Source: Nitrososphaera viennensis EN76
GTDB taxonomy: Archaea > Thermoproteota > Nitrososphaeria > Nitrososphaerales > Nitrososphaeraceae
NCBI RefSeq assembly: GCF_000698785.1
Contig: NZ_CP007536.1
Span: 960,001-992,000 of the forward strand
Length of the DNA stretch: 32,000 nucleotides
Reading direction: 5' to 3'
The position numbers and the translations under genes are program-made. Below, one piece after another: positions 3,132 to 11,524 of this stretch. Position 1 is the stretch's first letter. Each line of letters begins with the position of its first letter. The notes beneath the pieces were generated by a model. It was given only the letters and a program-made list of their open reading frames with translations, made no database searches and was not told where the DNA came from.

Positions 3132-3267
3132 AAAAGACTGCCAGATTTTTTGCCACATATATGCACCAGCTTTTGGTAACGGTATTTGAAAGCGGGACGC
3201 GCAATACATTTTTTGCAGCAGCATGGCCATGTCATGTAAATACTGCAAGGTGAAACTGTTATCTCAC

Positions 3268-3721
3268 ATGGTTGTTTCGAGAATCCTGGTGCCCCACGAC
3301 GGAACGGAGATGTCCGACAGGGCACTTGAAAAGGCGACCGAGTTTGCCAGGGCGTTCAAGGCAAGGATCATCATCGCGCACATTGTCGACAGCAGGTTCG
3401 TGCCACCAAGCGCAACCCTTGGCTTCATAAGCGACAGGACGTCGCTGGAAGGGGCCAGAACAGAGCTTGTCAAAATCCTAAAGTCCAGCGCAGAGCAAAT
3501 GCTCAAGGAAAAGATGGCAAAGGTAAAAGCGGATGGCATAAGCACCGACTTTGTTCTAGGAGTCGGATCTCCTGCTGACGAGATACAGCATCGCGCGCAG
3601 CACAGAATCAGACCTCATAGTGATGGGAAGCAGGCAGATGAAAAGCAACATCATGATGCTTGGCAGCGTCGCAAGGAAGGTGTCAGAGATGGTGCACTGC
3701 CCCGTCATGATAGTACGCTGA
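3268..3721 (+). pseudogene. Universal stress protein (UspA family) disrupted by a frameshift near 3598..3605
   Basis: The first reading frame gives MVVSRILVPHDGTEMSDRALEKATEFARAFKARIIIAHIVDS...GVGSPADEIQHRAQH. The canonical USP C-terminus ESDLIVMGSRQMKSNIMMLGSVARKVSEMVHCPVMIVR* continues in the next frame (3605..3721). The 211-aa ORF-track product (3223..3858) has a junk C-terminus. Confidence 0.7.
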
Positions 3722-3854
3722 TGATAATGGGGGCAATCAATCCTTGTGCCAGAGACTTCTTCTCTATGCAAAGGGCCTCTTTATCTGCCGCATCCGGCAA
3801 GCGCGCATCCCTCATAGATGTTATAAAGGCGGTCTGTGAATATACAGCTCAGCA

Positions 3855-4370
3855 ATGAGCTCCGAGACTCCGGCACCGTCAAGCGGCTCCCAGCCAGAGC
3901 TGGTCCTTGCAAGGTGGAGCGACCGCTTTTTCGCGTGGCTGATAGACTTTATCATAGTGCAGGTGGCACTTGGCGCAATATTTGCAGCTGCAGCATTTCC
4001 GTTCTGGTTTGGCGATTTTAGCCGCGCAGACAGGTTCTTCTGGGGAGACGGCCCGGTAAGATACGCCATCACGAGCGCCGTGTTCTTTGCATACTGGACG
4101 TTCTTTGAATCTACCAAGGGCCAGTCGATAGGCAAGATGGTGCTAAAGATAAGGACCGTCGACCTTGCAGGCAGGCCGGTTGACACGAAGGGCGCCGCGA
4201 TTCAGAGCTTTGGCAAGGCGTTCCTGCTTCCAATAGACGTCGTCCTTGGCTGGATATTCACAAACGACAAGAGGCAGCGCCTGTTCAACAGGGCAAGCGA
4301 CACGATCGTGATCAAGGAAACTACTGTCAGCACTACGCAACAGCCGGGCGCAAGCTACAGAAAGGATTAG
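3855..4370 (+). CDS. RDD family membrane protein (171 aa)
   Basis: ARWSDRFFAWLIDFIIV is the N-terminal R/D motif. Hydrophobic helices follow, then KGQSIGKMVLKIRTVDLAGRP and FNRASDTIV, which are typical of RDD domains. Confidence 0.85.
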   Translation: MSSETPAPSSGSQPELVLARWSDRFFAWLIDFIIVQVALGAIFAAAAFPFWFGDFSRADRFFWGDGPVRYAITSAVFFAYWTFFESTKGQSIGKMVLKIRTVDLAGRPVDTKGAAIQSFGKAFLLPIDVVLGWIFTNDKRQRLFNRASDTIVIKETTVSTTQQPGASYRKD

Positions 4371-5485
4371 TAGCAGACCATCTGGTCAGTGCCCGTTATC
4401 CGGAACGCCTCTTCCCTTGCGTCAAGCCCAAGGCCGGTGTAAATGTCGACGTGCTTGCCTATTACTCCCGGGCCGGTATCCGCCGCGGTGAACACCATTT
4501 CATTCCACGGCTCGGGAAGCAACGGGATTGCCATCTTTGTAAAATATGGGACAAGGTCCGTGTCAGTCGCCACGCGGCCGACCTGCGCCAAAAGGCCGCT
4601 TGAGGTCCCGGGCTGGCTTGAGACGTGGAAGGCGCCGCCCCAGTGCCCAAGGTAGTCGCCGGCGACGGTCTTGCCCGAGCCCTGTACCATCACCTGGTCT
4701 ACAAATCCCTTGTAGAACGTCCTTGTGCCCTCGTCAGTCAAGACATCGACTGTGCCCGTCCCGGCATAGTCCTCCTCCAGGGGAGTAAAGTAGCCGGTTA
4801 CGCGCCAGCCGTCAGTGCACGCCTTGCCCGCAAGAAGTGGATTGACGTCCAGCTTTTGCGCGGGGTAGATGAGGTACGGCGAAGGGATGTTGTTTCTTGC
4901 CGCAATGTCCGTCCAGGGCACCCCGTACGCCTGGCCTATCCTGTACAGCGTGTCGCCGGGCTGGACGGTGTAGACGATGTTGCCTGCAAGGTAGCCCTGC
5001 ACCCGGATCTCGTCTATTGCGGCCCACTCGTTTTCGGTGTTGCCGTACACGCTTATCTTGACATAGCGCGCGCTGACGTGCTGCTCAAACGCATAGTGCT
5101 CCAGCTCTCCTGTCGACCCGCTGCTGTTGCCCCTGTACGTGTCAAGGTACATTTCGCCGTCAAGGGACGTCCTTATCACAAAGTGCGAGGTCCGCGCGTC
5201 GCCCCTGTACCATGCAATGTCGACGCTGCAGAGTGTTTTTGGCGACCCGAGATCCAGCCTGATCCACGAGCCCGCCCCGTCGTTGGCCCATCCCGTATAC
5301 AGCTTGCCGTCGACGGCATTGCCAGGCGGGCTTGACGGCTGGCTGCCAGATGCCGAGACGTTGGCGGTTTTCAGGCTGCCGCATGACGCCGCGTCGGCCT
5401 GCATTGGAGCCGCAAAGAACAATGACGTGGCAACAATTGCTGATGCTGTCACCATCATCATCATTACGAAGGCAAGACGACGCAA
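4367..5485 (-). CDS. Secreted discoidin (F5/8 type C) - LysM - 3D/MltA-like domain protein (372 aa)
   Basis: The signal peptide is MRRLAFVMMMMVTASAIVATSLFFAAPMQADA. The discoidin-like region is NAVDGKLYTGWANDGAGSWIRLDLG...ARYVKISVYGNTENEWAAIDEIRVQGY. The LysM domain is YTVQPGDTLYRIGQAYGVPWTDIAARNNIPSPYLIYPAQKLDV. The 3D-domain-like C-terminus is RVTGYFTP...VQGSGKT...VATDTDLVPYFTKMAIP...FTAADTGPGVIGKHVDIYTG. Confidence 0.85.
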   Translation of the reverse strand: MRRLAFVMMMMVTASAIVATSLFFAAPMQADAASCGSLKTANVSASGSQPSSPPGNAVDGKLYTGWANDGAGSWIRLDLGSPKTLCSVDIAWYRGDARTSHFVIRTSLDGEMYLDTYRGNSSGSTGELEHYAFEQHVSARYVKISVYGNTENEWAAIDEIRVQGYLAGNIVYTVQPGDTLYRIGQAYGVPWTDIAARNNIPSPYLIYPAQKLDVNPLLAGKACTDGWRVTGYFTPLEEDYAGTGTVDVLTDEGTRTFYKGFVDQVMVQGSGKTVAGDYLGHWGGAFHVSSQPGTSSGLLAQVGRVATDTDLVPYFTKMAIPLLPEPWNEMVFTAADTGPGVIGKHVDIYTGLGLDAREEAFRITGTDQMVCY

Positions 5486-8498: not shown

Positions 8499-9191
8499 TT
8501 AACAATACATGCTGTTGCCAACGTACTTTTCCTGCACCGAGTCCAGCAGCAGGTTCTGCGCCTTTAGCGACTCGACGGCGGCCGCAAGCGCCTTTTCGCG
8601 TTTTTCAGCCGGCATTGCAGACAAGATGTCGCGCCACACCTGCGCATGCCTCACGTCGGCCTCCTCGTGGATCTCGAAATAGTTGAGCGCGTCCCTGCCG
8701 GTCATGTTGTAGAATTTCATCAGGCCATCAATCTTGCTCCTGCTTATTTTTGGAAGCTCTGCCTCAAACGCGTACATTGCGGCGACTGCCTCCTCAAATG
8801 ACAGCGAAGTGAGCGACATCATCCTTGCCACCGCGTCGTTTGTCTTTGCCGCGCCAGAATAGCTGGCGAGCTCGGATTGTGAAACGCCCATCGCGCCGGC
8901 AAACCTTGCCCACGGCTCGATGTGCTCCGACTCTTCCTTCAGGTTCTCCTCAATGCTGGGAACCTTTGCAGGGTCGGTGTTGGCAGAGGCGATGTTCTGC
9001 ACGAACGCAGGGACTGCCTTTACCAGCTGGAAATATTCCTTGGAGTAGCCCTGCAGGTGGTCGACTGTCAGCCTGCCCTCTGACCACATCTGGTAGAACG
9101 GGTGCTTCAAAAGGCTGCGCTTCTCTATCTCCGAGTCGATCCTCTCTACAAGGTCGTAATTTTCCATATTATAACTCACTTCAACAGCCAT
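8499..9191 (-). CDS. Heme-oxygenase-like di-iron protein of the TenA/PqqC/CADD family (CADD-type candidate p-aminobenzoate synthase)
   Basis: SLLKHPFYQMWSEGRLTVDHLQGYSKEYFQLVKAVPAFV matches the CADD/PqqC N-terminal signature. ExxH-type metal motifs are present (EESEHIEPW, HEEADVRHAQVW). An alternative start is ATG 9167 (MENYDLV...), which has a T-rich box at a better distance. Confidence 0.8.
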   Translation of the reverse strand: MAVEVSYNMENYDLVERIDSEIEKRSLLKHPFYQMWSEGRLTVDHLQGYSKEYFQLVKAVPAFVQNIASANTDPAKVPSIEENLKEESEHIEPWARFAGAMGVSQSELASYSGAAKTNDAVARMMSLTSLSFEEAVAAMYAFEAELPKISRSKIDGLMKFYNMTGRDALNYFEIHEEADVRHAQVWRDILSAMPAEKREKALAAAVESLKAQNLLLDSVQEKYVGNSMYC

Positions 9192-9216
9192 AGAAAAACC
9201 TTATGACAGCAGACGT

Positions 9217-9254
9217 TGTCAAGTCTTAGGTTGATGAACAACCCTGTCAACTTT
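9217..9254. repeat. Left 38-bp terminal inverted repeat
   Basis: Exact reverse complement of 9505..9542. Confidence 0.95.
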
Positions 9255-9504
9255 TGGCTGATCAAATCTTAATCTTGAATATCTGCTTGGATAATGGATT
9301 ATCGTTGTTGGCAGTAAAGAGCGTGAAGCAGACATGCTCGACTGAACCTCTACTACCCGTGATGGAAACATTCGGGCAAATGGTTAATGATTGCATCAGA
9401 ATCGGCCTGCAAATGAAGCAATGGTACAGGAACCCGGGAGCGTGACGCCGGTAATCCTGAAAGTCGATGCAGGCAGGTTGAGTCTTTTACAACGTTGTCA
9501 ACCG

Positions 9505-9542
9505 AAAGTTGACAGGGTTGTTCATCAACCTAAGACTTGACA
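9505..9542. repeat. Right 38-bp terminal inverted repeat
   Basis: Exact reverse complement of 9217..9254. Confidence 0.95.
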
Positions 9543-9559
9543 GAACCTGACAGCAAGGA

Positions 9560-9565
9560 TTTTAT
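9560..9565 (+). promoter_or_regulatory. TATA-like TTTTAT upstream of tRNA-Glu
   Basis: GATTTTATG lies ~30 nt upstream of the tRNA 5' end at 9594. Confidence 0.35.
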
Positions 9566-9593
9566 GTGAATCTCCCACCGATTGTGCTCAAGT

Positions 9594-9712
9594 GCTCCGG
9601 TGGTGTAGTGGCTATTCTGCCGGCCGTCATGTCCGGCAAGGGGCTGCACAGTCCGGTCAAGCATTGTGGCCTTTCGAGTCGCAGATCCCGGGTTCAAATC
9701 CCGGCCGGAGCA
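9594..9712 (+). tRNA. tRNA-Glu (UUC) interrupted by a ~43-nt intron in the D-loop
   Basis: The exons join to GCTCCGGTGGTGTAGT/CCGGTCAAGCATTGTGGCCTTTCGAGTCGCAGATCCCGGGTTCAAATCCCGGCCGGAGCA (76 nt). The fold has acceptor GCTCCGG/CCGGAGC, D-stem GTGT/GCAT, anticodon stem GTGGC/GTCGC, loop CTTTCGA and T-arm CCGGG-TTCAAAT-CCCGG. The sequence closely resembles archaeal tRNA-Glu. Confidence 0.85.
9610..9652 (+). other. Predicted non-canonical tRNA intron (the boundary can slide by 3 nt because AGT is repeated)
   Basis: These are 43 extra nt between D-loop positions ~16/17. They contain the hairpin GCCGG-CCGTCATGT-CCGGC. The bulge-helix-bulge structure was not verified. Confidence 0.6.
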
Positions 9713-9933: not shown

Positions 9934-10146
9934 ATGCAAGTCAATAAGGCGAGCGACCGTCTTTATGCACGTCTTTGGTCCTTGGGCGTCAACGTATCTG
10001 CAATCAGGCACTCCAATCCTTCAGATGACGACCTCGCAGATTTTGTACACAGGTTGACACTTCTCATGAAAAAGTATCGGGTCCAGGTAGTTCCAGGTTT
10101 GGCGCTTTTGTCCTCGTCTCTGATGAATGAAAGCAGAGTCGTCTGA
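9934..10146 (+). CDS. Small protein, paralog A of a LYxRLxSxGVNVSxI...NPSxxDLxxF family (70 aa)
   Basis: MQVNKASDRLYARLWSLGVNVSAIRHSNPSDDDLADFVHRLTLLMKK... is ~50% identical over 42 aa to the unlisted ORF at 11366..11524. A TAAAATAAAT box lies ~25-30 nt upstream and a hairpin terminator downstream. Confidence 0.55.
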   Translation: MQVNKASDRLYARLWSLGVNVSAIRHSNPSDDDLADFVHRLTLLMKKYRVQVVPGLALLSSSLMNESRVV

Positions 10147-11179: not shown

Positions 11180-11365
11180 CACAATACCCCGAATATGGTA
11201 AATAATGCCGAATAATTTAACAATTTTGGTATTTTAGCCGCTGATGATCGCTCCCATTATTTGTAATAGATTTTGCGTCACTAATGTTATTCTACTAATT
11301 TTTCCACAGACTGATACTTCTCAAAGGATTAATATGCAAAATGTAACTTGCAGCGTGAAAATATT

Positions 11366-11524
11366 ATGGAAAGGGAAGCTTTGACACAAGAGAGCCTCTA
11401 CGAGCGCCTTGAATCTTTTGGAGTAAACGTGTCCATCATTAAAAAAATGAATCCTTCGCTGGAAGATCTTTTAGAGTTCACGGGCAAGCTACAAGAACTG
11501 ATGAAGAATCCCGCCGAAACCTAA
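11366..11524 (+). CDS. Unlisted small ORF (52 aa), paralog B of the 9934..10146 protein
   Basis: ATG at 11366 gives MEREALTQESLYERLESFGVNVSIIKKMNPSLEDLLEFTGKLQELMKNPAET*. Its upstream region shares TCCACAGA and AAAT-TG-AACTT blocks with paralog A. Confidence 0.55.
   Translation: MEREALTQESLYERLESFGVNVSIIKKMNPSLEDLLEFTGKLQELMKNPAET

What the first reader, a model, noticed from the sequence alone, without database searches (positions are those of the whole stretch)
9217..9542. 326-bp element with perfect 38-bp terminal inverted repeats wedged between the CADD-like gene and tRNA-Glu
Positions 9217..9254 and 9505..9542 are exact reverse complements (38/38), far beyond chance in 32 kb. They enclose 250 bp with only a 63-codon ORF.

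A direct repeat AACCT(TA)TGACAGCA / AACCTGACAGCA lies just outside both arms (TGACAGCA at 9204..9211 and 9548..9555). This may be a target duplication or part of the ends.

The internal ORF fragment ...AVKSVKQ...LLPVMETFGQMVNDCIRIGL faintly recalls N-termini of archaeal TnpB/OrfB-type proteins. That would make this a deletion derivative (MITE) of a larger IS, but the similarity is weak.

The element occupies the shared upstream region of two divergent genes, so it may supply or disturb their promoters. If transcribed it would form a 38-bp dsRNA stem.
Basis: partly seen in the sequence, partly recalled or inferred. Interest (0 to 1): 0.65.

Follow-up and report, generated by a model that had tools for sequence, protein, structure and literature searches.

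The report
Dead TnpB transposon remnant (MITE)
The inverted-repeat element is a 336-bp gutted copy of a TnpB-carrying jumping gene, inserted between two promoters of a soil ammonia-oxidising archaeon; it matters mainly because its family has IS6-type ends and 8-bp target duplications instead of the usual IS200/IS605 anatomy.

Summary
The arms 9217-9254 and 9505-9542 are 38/38 complementary, and no such match occurs in shuffled sequence.

The element is an insertion. The closest relative has an empty site (…CCTTATGACAGCAAGGATTTT…). The window carries 336 bp (9212-9547) flanked by a perfect 8-bp target duplication, TGACAGCA.

The interior is an internally deleted tnpB gene. It keeps 35 N-terminal codons and 42 C-terminal codons, which are 83% and 68% identical to a frameshifted 1324-bp full-length relative in the same Nitrososphaera genome.

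Two corrections apply:
- The true ends lie 5 bp further out on each side.
- The family is not IS200/IS605-like.

About 60 related TnpB-only elements end in GGTTCTGT(C/T)AA…. At least 11 insertions have 8-bp duplications. Their ends are 15-20/24 identical to those of IS6-family (DDE_Tnp_IS240) transposons of the same archaea, including one in this genome. Mobilisation in trans by an IS6-type transposase is therefore the best explanation, but it is inferred.

The remnant keeps the whole covariation-supported RNA scaffold at the right end, which resembles an ωRNA. Both neighbouring core promoters are intact. Copy number in the genome could not be measured.

The parts
9204..9211 (.). Left copy of the 8-bp target-site duplication, TGACAGCA
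   Evidence: The empty site in L005 reads CCTTA-TGACAGCA-AGGATTTT with a single copy. The coordinates were checked.
9212..9547 (+). The whole non-autonomous element (336 bp): an internally deleted TnpB-only transposon with IS6-type ends
   Evidence: It is an insertion relative to L005 and about 80 other orthologous loci. Its left 190 bp and right 130 bp align at 74-81% with the 1324-bp element L085:4858-6181 from the same genome.
9212..9261 (+). Left end (LE) inverted repeat: a divergent 5-nt tip GACGT, then 45 nt of which 9217-9254 are perfectly complementary to the right end
   Evidence: Family LE tips normally read GGTTCTGT….
9308..9412 (+). Remnant of the TnpB N-terminus: TTG start plus 34 codons, (M)AVKSVKQTCSTEPLLPVMETFGQMVNDCIRIGLQ
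   Evidence: 83% identical to the L085 TnpB. phmmer and a profile search find 369 thaumarchaeal homologues, some named 'putative transposase', one of them with a PF07282 domain.
9403..9414 (+). Internal deletion junction. About 1 kb of tnpB is missing relative to L085:5048-6053. The join is out of frame and lies at a short GG(C) microhomology.
   Evidence: blastn alignment blocks. The frames are shown.
9412..9540 (+). Remnant of the TnpB C-terminus in another frame: NEAMVQEPGSVTPVILKVDAGRLSLLQRCQPKVDRVVHQPKT*. The stop codon TGA (9538-9540) lies inside the right inverted repeat.
   Evidence: 68% identical to the last 39 residues of the L085 TnpB.
9405..9547 (+). ωRNA-like structured module, kept intact. 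Long-range stem 9405-9411/9468-9474. Terminal stem 9477-9486/9532-9541 enclosing hairpin 9489-9502/9508-9521. Invariant 3' tail AGAACC 9542-9547.
   Evidence: RNA fold -49.7 kcal/mol, z = -3.3, with the same architecture as L085. Both stems are supported by covariation in 38 family members: 95% of cells paired against 71% in shuffles, 96 double-change cells against 31, and 27-45% paired in slid controls.
9498..9547 (+). Right end (RE) inverted repeat ending …CTTGACAGAACC. The tip matches the family and the IS6-type consensus (reverse complement GGTTCTGTCAAG).
9548..9555 (.). Right copy of the 8-bp target-site duplication, TGACAGCA
9188..9203 (-). Conserved TATA/BRE-like box of the CADD-like gene (minus strand TAAGGTTTTTCTATGG), outside the insertion and intact
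   Evidence: Conserved as GCCATAGAAAAACCTT in L005-L010, L012, L015 and L016. Its role as a promoter is inferred from position and conservation only.
9556..9569 (+). Conserved TATA/BRE-like box of tRNA-Glu (AGGATTTTATGTGA), outside the insertion and intact
   Evidence: AAGGATTTTATGTGAA is conserved upstream of tRNA-Glu in all close relatives. Its role as a promoter is inferred.
9594..9712 (+). tRNA-Glu(UUC) with a 43-nt intron at 9610-9652 (neighbour, not part of the element)
   Evidence: Alignment to the intron-less tRNA-Glu of relatives.
8499..9167 (-). CADD-like / TENA-PqqC-family gene (neighbour). The likely start is ATG 9167 rather than 9191.
   Evidence: Pfam PF03070 and PF14518. Most homologues align from residue 9-14 onward.

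Best explanation
The element (9212-9547) is a non-autonomous, internally deleted copy of a roughly 1.2-1.3 kb TnpB-only transposon family that is common in ammonia-oxidising Thaumarchaeota.

Shown:
- It is an insertion with an 8-bp target duplication.
- It is homologous to both ends of a tnpB gene.
- The family's ends are inverted repeats beginning GGTTCTGT.
- Other members also have 8-bp duplications.
- These ends closely resemble those of IS6-family (DDE_Tnp_IS240) transposons of the same archaea, one of which is in the same genome.

Inferred:
- A full-length element lost about 1 kb of tnpB by deletion at a short GG(C) microhomology.
- The remnant was inserted by an IS6-type DDE transposase supplied in trans. 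That transposase binds the inverted ends and makes staggered cuts 8 bp apart.
- The insertion landed in the 8-bp spacer between the divergent core promoters of the CADD-like gene and tRNA-Glu. Because the spacer was duplicated, both promoters stayed whole and the insertion was tolerated.
- The remnant keeps the complete structured RNA module at the 3' end of tnpB. This is probably the ωRNA scaffold, whose last stem is formed partly by the right inverted repeat itself.
- Today the element is most likely an inert relic. It encodes no protein, its left tip is GACGT rather than GG…, and the only same-family tnpB found in the genome is frameshifted.
For: Inverted repeat.

Empty site and duplication: (L005, 90% identical CADD-like protein).

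Absence from relatives: none of 80 orthologous loci contains the element, and their spacers are about 57-100 bp against 401 bp here.

Homology of the interior to TnpB.

Full-length relative in the same genome (L085:4858-6181): ends GGTTCTGTCAAGTCTTAGGTTG…/…CAGAACC and flanks TTGCATCT/CTGCATCT. It is identified as TnpB.

Family ends: 56 distinct right ends finish in CAGAACC or a near variant.

Target duplications: perfect 8-bp duplications in L125, L138, L145, L150, L154/155, L161, L115, L130 and the window, and 7/8 matches in L085 and L144.

IS6-type DDE elements of Nitrososphaera/Thaumarchaeota:
- L013:5772-9969 has a 50-bp perfect TIR beginning GGTTCTGTAGCATCTTCGGCTCAT, the duplication CCCTTTCA, and a PF13610 hit at 1.2e-16.
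- L175:790-3876 has the TIR GGTGCTGTCACATCTGCGGCTGATG, 20/26 identical to the window's right end, and the duplication CTCTGGCA.
- L169, from the N. viennensis genome, has the TIR GGTTCTGTATACTTGTCGTCGG.

TIR identities between the two kinds of element are 15-20/24.

Published IS6-family criteria are an 8-bp duplication, a GG tip and a cTGTt motif (PMC7986276). N. viennensis EN76 carries at least 7 IS6-family hits (PMC6563490, supplement file 4).

RNA module.
Against: - No transposition was observed, and no transposase has been shown to bind these ends.
- Only one copy of the short element is known. I could not scan the source genome, which is absent or masked in genome contigs, so the multi-copy criterion for a MITE is untested.
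- The left tip differs from the family consensus at 4 of 5 positions while the next 38 bp are perfect. This is unexplained.
- About half of the family members with good inverted repeats lack a duplication.
- One IS6-type element, in N. viennensis (L169), also lacks one.
- No element was found that carries both the DDE transposase and tnpB.
- The window element is only 74-81% identical to L085, so its direct parent has not been found.
- The RNA module has no Rfam match, and its expression is unknown.
Confidence: 0.8

Rival explanations
1. It is an IS200/IS605-type remnant (PATE, IS1341 group). In that case it is moved as single-stranded DNA by a Y1 HUH TnpA that recognises subterminal hairpins, and the inverted repeat is just the LE and RE hairpins.
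For: The cargo is TnpB, and earlier surveys labelled thaumarchaeal copies as IS200/IS605 subgroup IS1341 (PMC6563490 supplement). The right end contains a hairpin at 9489-9521.
Against: IS200/IS605 elements have no terminal inverted repeats and make no target duplications (PMC13565253, PMC4810608). This family has 17-50 bp inverted ends and 8-bp duplications in at least 11 insertions. No partner hairpin was apparent in the left ends examined by eye, though this was not tested systematically. The right-end stems carry many G-U pairs and lie within a larger RNA-like fold.
Confidence: 0.05
2. It is a host regulatory palindrome or an invertible promoter segment (inverton) that controls the two divergent genes.
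For: It lies between two divergent promoters. The arms are perfect, as recombination would keep them.
Against: It is absent from all relatives, including a 90%-identical one. The interior is a decayed tnpB gene. It is flanked by a target duplication. Four independent assemblies of this strain show one orientation only. Both conserved TATA-like boxes lie outside the segment.
Confidence: 0.03
3. It is a genuine TnpB-derived MITE, but it is moved by some other DDE transposase, and the resemblance of its ends to IS6-type ends is convergent or superficial.
For: No direct link between the transposase and these ends has been shown. The archaeal 'IS6' clades are themselves only distantly related to bacterial IS6/IS26 (PMC6807381). 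Several families other than IS6 also make 8-bp duplications; this rests on my own knowledge and was not checked here.
Against: The ends are 15-20/24 identical to three thaumarchaeal DDE_Tnp_IS240 elements. That is as close as those elements are to each other (16/24), and they share the same 8-bp duplication length. Published criteria for IS6 ends are met: GG tip and cTGTt motif (PMC7986276).
Confidence: 0.1

Closest known systems
MITEs of the IS6 family (ISfinder MITEBth2 and MITEHarch3, 227 and 336 bp; cited in PMC7986276 and PMC6807381)
   Same: Short, with no transposase. Inverted ends of the GG…cTGT type. 8-bp target duplication. Presumed mobilisation in trans by an IS6-family DDE transposase.
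   Different: The interior here is not IS6 transposase debris or anonymous DNA. It is a deleted tnpB gene together with its RNA module. The left tip is not GG. Only one copy is known.
DDE-transposase-associated TnpB elements with symmetric ends (Altae-Tran et al. 2023, PMC10691335; the review PMC13565253 names ISL2, IS630 and IS1031)
   Same: TnpB sits between inverted terminal repeats. The 3' end of tnpB lies within 250 bp of the transposon end. Solo TnpB copies carry the same ends as transposase-bearing elements, which implies mobilisation in trans.
   Different: The partner here is an IS6-type (DDE_Tnp_IS240, ISDsp3-like) element, which is not among the families named in the texts I could read; the supplement was not available. 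No element with both genes was found. The tnpB reading frame runs into the inverted repeat, and the repeat forms one strand of the terminal RNA stem.
IS1341-group (TnpB-only) members of IS200/IS605, and their PATE remnants in haloarchaea (PMC3119063)
   Same: TnpB-only cargo. Frequent internal or core deletions leave terminal-only remnants. Copies are highly diverse and mostly decayed.
   Different: Those elements lack inverted terminal repeats and target duplications and insert next to a short fixed motif. This family has both repeats and duplications.
ωRNA (reRNA) of TnpB, for example from ISDra2
   Same: A structured RNA encoded on the sense strand. It overlaps the 3' end of tnpB and ends exactly at the transposon's right boundary, so the next bases would serve as the guide.
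   Different: Sequence and fold match no Rfam family. Expression, processing and guide use are untested. The guide would begin with the 8-bp target duplication.

Membership tests
MITE (miniature inverted-repeat transposable element) | Short (under about 500 bp), with no intact transposase gene | tested here: met
   336 bp. The only ORFs are out-of-frame tnpB fragments.
MITE (miniature inverted-repeat transposable element) | Terminal inverted repeats | tested here: met
   38/38 perfect and 43/45 overall. The outermost 5 nt do not pair.
MITE (miniature inverted-repeat transposable element) | Target-site duplication and an empty site in relatives | tested here: met
   TGACAGCA occurs twice here and once in L005.
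MITE (miniature inverted-repeat transposable element) | Related to a longer element with the same ends | tested here: met
   L085:4858-6181 in the same genome, and about 60 metagenomic relatives.
MITE (miniature inverted-repeat transposable element) | Multiple copies in the genome | not testable with these tools
   The source genome is not searchable. A 22-mer from the repeat has no exact match in genome contigs or metagenome contigs. The ORF product is not on record elsewhere.
IS6 family ends (criteria from PMC7986276) | 8-bp direct target repeats | tested here: met
   Seen in the window and in at least 10 further family members.
IS6 family ends (criteria from PMC7986276) | Short related inverted repeats with a GG tip and a cTGTt motif | tested here: inconclusive
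   The right end and the family consensus, GGTTCTGT(C/T)AA, meet it. The window's left tip is GACGTTGTCAA, with no GG. The 'caaa' motif is only partly present (CAAG/TAAC).
IS6 family ends (criteria from PMC7986276) | Encodes, or is mobilised by, an IS6-type DDE transposase | not testable with these tools
   None is encoded in the element. DDE_Tnp_IS240 transposons with 15-20/24 identical ends exist in relatives and in the same genome. Mobilisation is inferred.
IS200/IS605 family, IS1341 group, and PATEs | TnpB (RuvC plus zinc-ribbon) cargo | tested here: met
   The full-length relative gives NCBIfam guided_TnpB 6e-25, PF07282 1.6e-16 and PDB TnpB 1.5e-6. The window holds both termini of the gene.
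IS200/IS605 family, IS1341 group, and PATEs | No terminal inverted repeats and no target duplication; insertion 3' of a fixed 4-5 nt motif | tested here: not met
   Inverted repeats and 8-bp duplications are present. The definition is taken from PMC13565253 and PMC4810608.
TnpB ωRNA | Conserved secondary structure overlapping the 3' end of tnpB and ending at the right boundary of the element | tested here: met
   Two helices with compensatory changes at 11 of 12 pairs, against controls. The window copy folds the same way.
TnpB ωRNA | Transcribed, bound by TnpB, and using the flanking DNA as guide | not testable with these tools
   No expression or biochemical data are available.

The most novel reading that the evidence does not exclude
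Ammonia-oxidising Thaumarchaeota may host a large, so far undescribed family of TnpB-only transposons that have swapped the usual IS200/IS605 or IS607 chassis for IS6-type inverted ends. They would be moved in trans by IS6-family DDE transposases, producing 8-bp duplications. The transposase-binding repeat at the right end would double as the last stem of the guide-RNA scaffold, so that the left end, the right end and the RNA partner strand co-vary. The window element would then be a 'solo ωRNA' derivative that kept exactly the RNA module. This would link an RNA-guided nuclease to a copy-in, cointegrate-forming transposase that leaves no empty donor site, which is awkward for the current 'restorative homing' explanation of why transposons carry TnpB.
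Probability: 0.4. Interest if true: 0.7.

Novelty: new variant of a known kind. Interest (0 to 1): 0.5.

Why it matters
For this locus, the result settles an odd-looking palindrome as a harmless transposon relic. It also explains why the insertion is tolerated: it split two back-to-back promoters exactly at their 8-bp spacer and duplicated that spacer.

More broadly, TnpB is the ancestor of Cas12 and is used as a genome-editing tool. Its biology is understood almost entirely in IS200/IS605 and IS607 elements, which excise without a scar.

A widespread archaeal TnpB lineage sitting on IS6-type ends would extend the short list of TnpB partnerships with DDE transposases. Its guide-RNA stem is built into the inverted repeat and its guide starts with the target duplication. 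Such a lineage offers a natural test of what TnpB does for a transposon that may not leave an empty donor site.

It also suggests that the thaumarchaeal TnpB copies listed as 'IS200/IS605, subgroup IS1341' in earlier surveys should be re-examined: if they belong to this family, their ends and mobilisation differ from what that label implies.

Tried and rejected
- **Exact TIR search.** An exact 22-mer from the repeat (GTTGATGAACAACCCTGTCAAC) had no hit in genome contigs or metagenome contigs. This says little, because the source genome is absent or masked there and relatives differ at single bases.
- **First protein search.** The first word-indexed search with the 63-aa ORF found nothing, and Pfam found nothing. 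Only the exhaustive phmmer run and a profile built from its hits exposed the family.
- **Other copies of the ORF.** An exact look-up of the ORF product elsewhere found nothing on record.
- **Rfam.** At gathering and at permissive thresholds, Rfam gave no match for the RNA module.
- **IS26 transposase query.** That hit was then confirmed with Pfam.
- **Inverton or regulatory palindrome.** Rejected: the element is absent in relatives, only one orientation is seen in four assemblies, and it is homologous to a transposon.
- **Y1/IS605-type PATE.** Rejected because of the inverted repeats and the duplications.
- **tRNA-targeted integrative element.** Rejected: the repeats are inverted rather than direct, and the tRNA gene is untouched.
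Rejected: the right-hand AACC is the tip of the element.
- **L177/L178 (a third IS6-type transposase locus).** These showed no recognisable GGTTCTGT ends.
- **PNAS 2023 supplement.** The supplement that lists the DDE partners was not available.

Full report
**1. The observation**

The window sequence shows the two arms exactly as described. Positions 9217-9254 (TGTCAAGTCTTAGGTTGATGAACAACCCTGTCAACTTT) and 9505-9542 are perfect reverse complements. With two mismatches the repeat runs to 45 nt, 9217-9261 / 9498-9542. A search for the 38-mer with up to three mismatches finds only these two sites in 32 kb. It finds none in 100 dinucleotide-preserving shuffles. The 63-codon ORF (9254-9445) and the two TGACAGCA octamers (9204-9211, 9548-9555) are also there.

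**2. Where the window comes from, and what lies next to the element**

The CADD-like protein (8499-9191, minus strand; Pfam TENA/PqqC and Haem_oxygenase_2) is encoded identically on CP104300.1. This is a 2.52-Mb Nitrososphaera chromosome. I take it to be N. viennensis, because its IS6-type transposase P0150 is annotated as N. viennensis and also lies on the 2,527,938-bp EN76 genome. The same protein is encoded on three other contigs. All four are 100% identical across the element and show the same orientation.

On the other side lies tRNA-Glu(UUC), 9594-9712, with a 43-nt intron. ARAGORN and Rfam miss this gene.

**3. It is an insertion with an 8-bp target duplication**

I fetched 80 orthologous loci through the CADD-like protein. 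In nearly all of them tRNA-Glu sits divergently about 57-100 bp upstream of the gene. In the window the gap is 401 bp. None of the 80 loci has any blastn match to the element, its arms or its interior.

The closest relative (L005, 90% protein identity) reads:

…GCCATAGAAAAACCTTATGACAGCAAGGATTTTATGTGAATC…

The window reads:

…GCCATAGAAAAACCTTA[TGACAGCA]GACGT-TGTCAAG…CTTGACA-GAACC[TGACAGCA]AGGATTTTATGTGAATC…

So 344 bp were added: a 336-bp element (9212-9547) plus a duplicated octamer.

The conserved boxes on either side are AAGGTTTTTCTATGG on the minus strand and AAGGATTTTATGTGAA on the plus strand. They are present in all close relatives and lie just outside the insertion. From their position and conservation I infer that they are the BRE/TATA elements of the two genes. 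If so, the element landed in the short spacer between two back-to-back core promoters, and by duplicating that spacer it left both intact.

**4. The interior is a gutted tnpB gene**

Pfam and the word-indexed protein search found nothing for the 63-aa ORF. An exhaustive phmmer search found six short proteins 61-73% identical to residues 18-54. A profile built from them found 369 thaumarchaeal proteins. Several are named 'putative transposase', and one carries the TnpB zinc-ribbon domain PF07282.

One hit (P0105) lies on the same chromosome. Its locus (L085) holds a 1324-bp element with a frameshifted tnpB. The reconstructed 408-aa protein gives these scores:

- NCBIfam guided_TnpB, 6e-25
- Pfam PF07282, 1.6e-16
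- solved ISDra2 TnpB structures, 1.5e-6

The window element aligns with the left about 190 bp and the right about 130 bp of L085 at 74-81% identity.

In protein terms, 9308-9412 encodes (M)AVKSVKQTCSTEPLLPVMETFGQMVNDCIRIGLQ. This is 83% identical to the TnpB N-terminus (E 1e-19). In another frame, 9412-9540 encodes …EAMVQEPGSVTPVILKVDAGRLSLLQRCQPKVDRVVHQPKT*. This is 68% identical to its last 39 residues (E 2e-15).

About 1 kb is missing, and the join is out of frame at a GG(C) microhomology near 9403-9414.

**5. The family does not have IS200/IS605 anatomy**

Canonical TnpB elements (IS200/IS605, IS607) have no terminal inverted repeats and make no target duplications (PMC13565253, PMC4810608).

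I fetched 80 metagenomic loci with full-length relatives of the L085 TnpB (41-73% identity). Their features are:

- All are TnpB-only elements, 1.2-1.3 kb long where both ends could be located.
- 56 distinct right ends finish in …CAGAACC or a near variant.
- Where a left end is recognisable, it begins GGTTCTGT(C/T)AA(G/C)T….
- Perfect 8-bp duplications flank L125, L138, L145, L150, L154/155, L161, L115 and L130.
- L085 and L144 have 7/8 matches.
- About ten members with good inverted repeats have no duplication.

An 8-bp duplication, a GG tip and a cTGTt motif are the published hallmarks of IS6-family ends (PMC7986276). The IS257 repeat is GGTTCTGTTGCAAAGTT (PMC4856351).

**6. IS6-type transposons with the same ends live in the same archaea**

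One orthologous locus (L013) has a 4198-bp transposon inserted in the same promoter spacer. It has perfect 50-bp inverted repeats beginning GGTTCTGTAGCATCTTCGGCTCAT and the duplication CCCTTTCA. It carries a 294-aa DDE_Tnp_IS240 transposase (Pfam 1.2e-16) and an HsdM-like passenger gene.

Homologues of that transposase are abundant: 5831 hits. One is a 378-aa protein annotated as N. viennensis (P0150). Its element in the N. viennensis chromosome has the ends GGTTCTGTATACTTGTCGTCGG (L169:989-3655).

A third element, L175:790-3876, has the ends GGTGCTGTCACATCTGCGGCTGATG. These are 20/26 identical to the window's right end. Its duplication is CTCTGGCA.

Over the first 24 nt, TnpB-element ends are 15-20 positions identical to these DDE-element ends. 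The DDE elements are 16/24 identical to each other.

An earlier survey lists at least seven IS6-family hits in N. viennensis EN76. In N. evergladensis it labels TnpB copies 'IS200/IS605 ssgr IS1341'. In N. viennensis the rows I could read show one IS200/IS605 and one IS607 entry (PMC6563490 supplement).

I conclude that an IS6-type DDE transposase most likely mobilises the TnpB-only elements and their deletion derivative in trans. This is inference, not demonstration.

**7. A conserved RNA module at the right end, kept whole in the remnant**

I aligned the last 110 nt of 38 members and folded the alignment with RNAalifold. Two helices emerged: a long-range stem, and a terminal stem that ends 6 nt before the boundary.

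| Measure | Observed | Control |
|---|---|---|
| Cells forming a standard pair | 95% | 71% in shuffles |
| Cells with changes on both sides | 96 | 31 in shuffles |
| Shuffles reaching the observed covariation score | 0 of 500 | – |
| Cells paired when partners are slid by 1-3 columns | – | 27-45% |

Eleven of twelve pairs show compensatory changes. G-U pairs are frequent, which points to the sense strand.

One strand of the terminal stem is the inverted repeat itself: GTCAAGT/ACTTGAC, GTGAAGT/ACTTCAC, GTAAAGT/ACTTTAC, GGTAAC/GTTACC, and so on. The invariant tail AGAACC follows. This matches the layout of a TnpB ωRNA whose guide would start at the flanking DNA, here the duplication.

The window's 9405-9547 folds into the same two-domain structure (-49.7 kcal/mol, z = -3.3), as does L085. 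The 5' strand of the window's long-range stem (GCCTGC, pairing with GCAGGC) differs from that of L085 (CGCAGC, pairing with GCTGCG) in a compensatory way.

The deletion thus removed almost exactly the protein-coding body and left the RNA module whole. Whether this reflects selection or chance cannot be decided from one copy. Rfam has no matching family.

**8. What it does now**

Most likely nothing:

- No intact ORF remains.
- The left tip is GACGT rather than GG….
- The only same-family tnpB seen in the genome is frameshifted.
- Both neighbouring promoter boxes are untouched.

A transcript spanning the element could form a long hairpin, and the RNA module could in principle be expressed. Neither can be tested here.

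**9. Comparison with what is known, and novelty**

As an object, this is a MITE-like deletion derivative, which is a known kind of thing.

The family it reveals is less ordinary. TnpB associated with DDE transposases and symmetric ends has been reported as rare. PMC10691335 describes six DDE branches and names IS630. The review PMC13565253 lists ISL2, IS630 and IS1031. IS6-type partners are not named in the texts I could read. Two IS6 reviews do not mention TnpB, and a full-text search for TnpB together with IS6 gave nothing relevant. The supplement of PMC10691335 was not available, so prior description cannot be excluded. I therefore rate it 'new variant of a known kind'.

**10. Limits**

- Copy number in the source genome is untested.
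- The direct parent has not been found.
- The odd left tip is unexplained. ACGTTGTCAA recurs at 9213-9222 and 9492-9501, which may hint at a repair or template-switch event.
- Half of the family members lack duplications. This is expected if copies recombine or if cointegrates resolve, but that is not shown.
- All mechanistic steps involving the transposase and the RNA are inferred.

Noticed in passing
window 9594-9712 (intron 9610-9652): tRNA-Glu(UUC) carries a 43-nt intron in the D-loop region. ARAGORN and Rfam at gathering threshold therefore miss the gene. The intron is present in L005 and L016, shorter in L008/L010/L012, and absent in L006/L007/L009/L011.
   Followed up: partly
window 9204-9211; L013:5772-9969; L016:about 3255-4475: The few-bp spacer between the divergent CADD-like and tRNA-Glu promoters has been hit independently three times: by the window MITE; by a 4198-bp IS6-type transposon with an HsdM-like passenger gene (duplication CCCTTTCA) in L013; and by an unrelated insertion of about 1.25 kb, encoding a disrupted small membrane-like protein, in L016. 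It looks like a tolerated 'safe harbour'.
   Followed up: partly
12 nt 5' of the left duplication in the window, L085, L115, L125, L130, L138, L144, L145, L150, L154 and L161: The bases just upstream of the duplicated octamer are T/A-rich (CTTA, CTTT, CATA, ATTA, TTTG, TTTT, ATTA, ACTG, TATA, TTTG, TTTG). This could be a TAM-like motif or simply a preference for AT-rich targets (n = 11).
   Followed up: no
window 9212-9216, 9213-9222 and 9492-9501; L161:134-138: The left tip of the window element is GACGT rather than the family's GGTTC, although the next 38 bp are perfect. ACGTTGTCAA occurs both at the left tip and inside the right-end hairpin. Another member flanked by a duplication (L161) has the left tip GACTC.
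   Followed up: no
window 9165-9191: The annotated ATG at 9191 of the CADD-like ORF lies inside the conserved TATA-like box. The ATG at 9167 (MENYDL…) is about 28 nt downstream of that box, and most homologues align only from residue 9-14 onward. This suggests a leaderless mRNA starting at 9167.
   Followed up: partly
window 9934-10146 and 11348-11524: Two small paralogous ORFs (70 and 58 aa) share a motif, LYxRLxSxGVNVSxIxxxNPSxxDLxxF. Their function is unknown.
   Followed up: no
L086:370-972: An independent, in-frame internal deletion derivative of the same TnpB family (200 aa: about 100 N-terminal residues fused to about 100 C-terminal residues with the zinc ribbon). None of the 120 best profile hits to the N-terminus is longer than 200 aa, so fragmentary copies are very common in Thaumarchaeota.
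   Followed up: partly
L169:989-3655 (N. viennensis CP103305.1): The IS6-type element of N. viennensis is 2.67 kb long. Besides the 378-aa transposase it carries a MazE-like antitoxin gene and several small ORFs, so it is a passenger-carrying IS. It has no flanking duplication.
   Followed up: no
L004 (Logan contig SRR139061_111): A short-read assembly of the same strain breaks 30 nt into the inverted repeat. This is probably an assembly break caused by the 38-bp repeat, not evidence of rearrangement.
   Followed up: no
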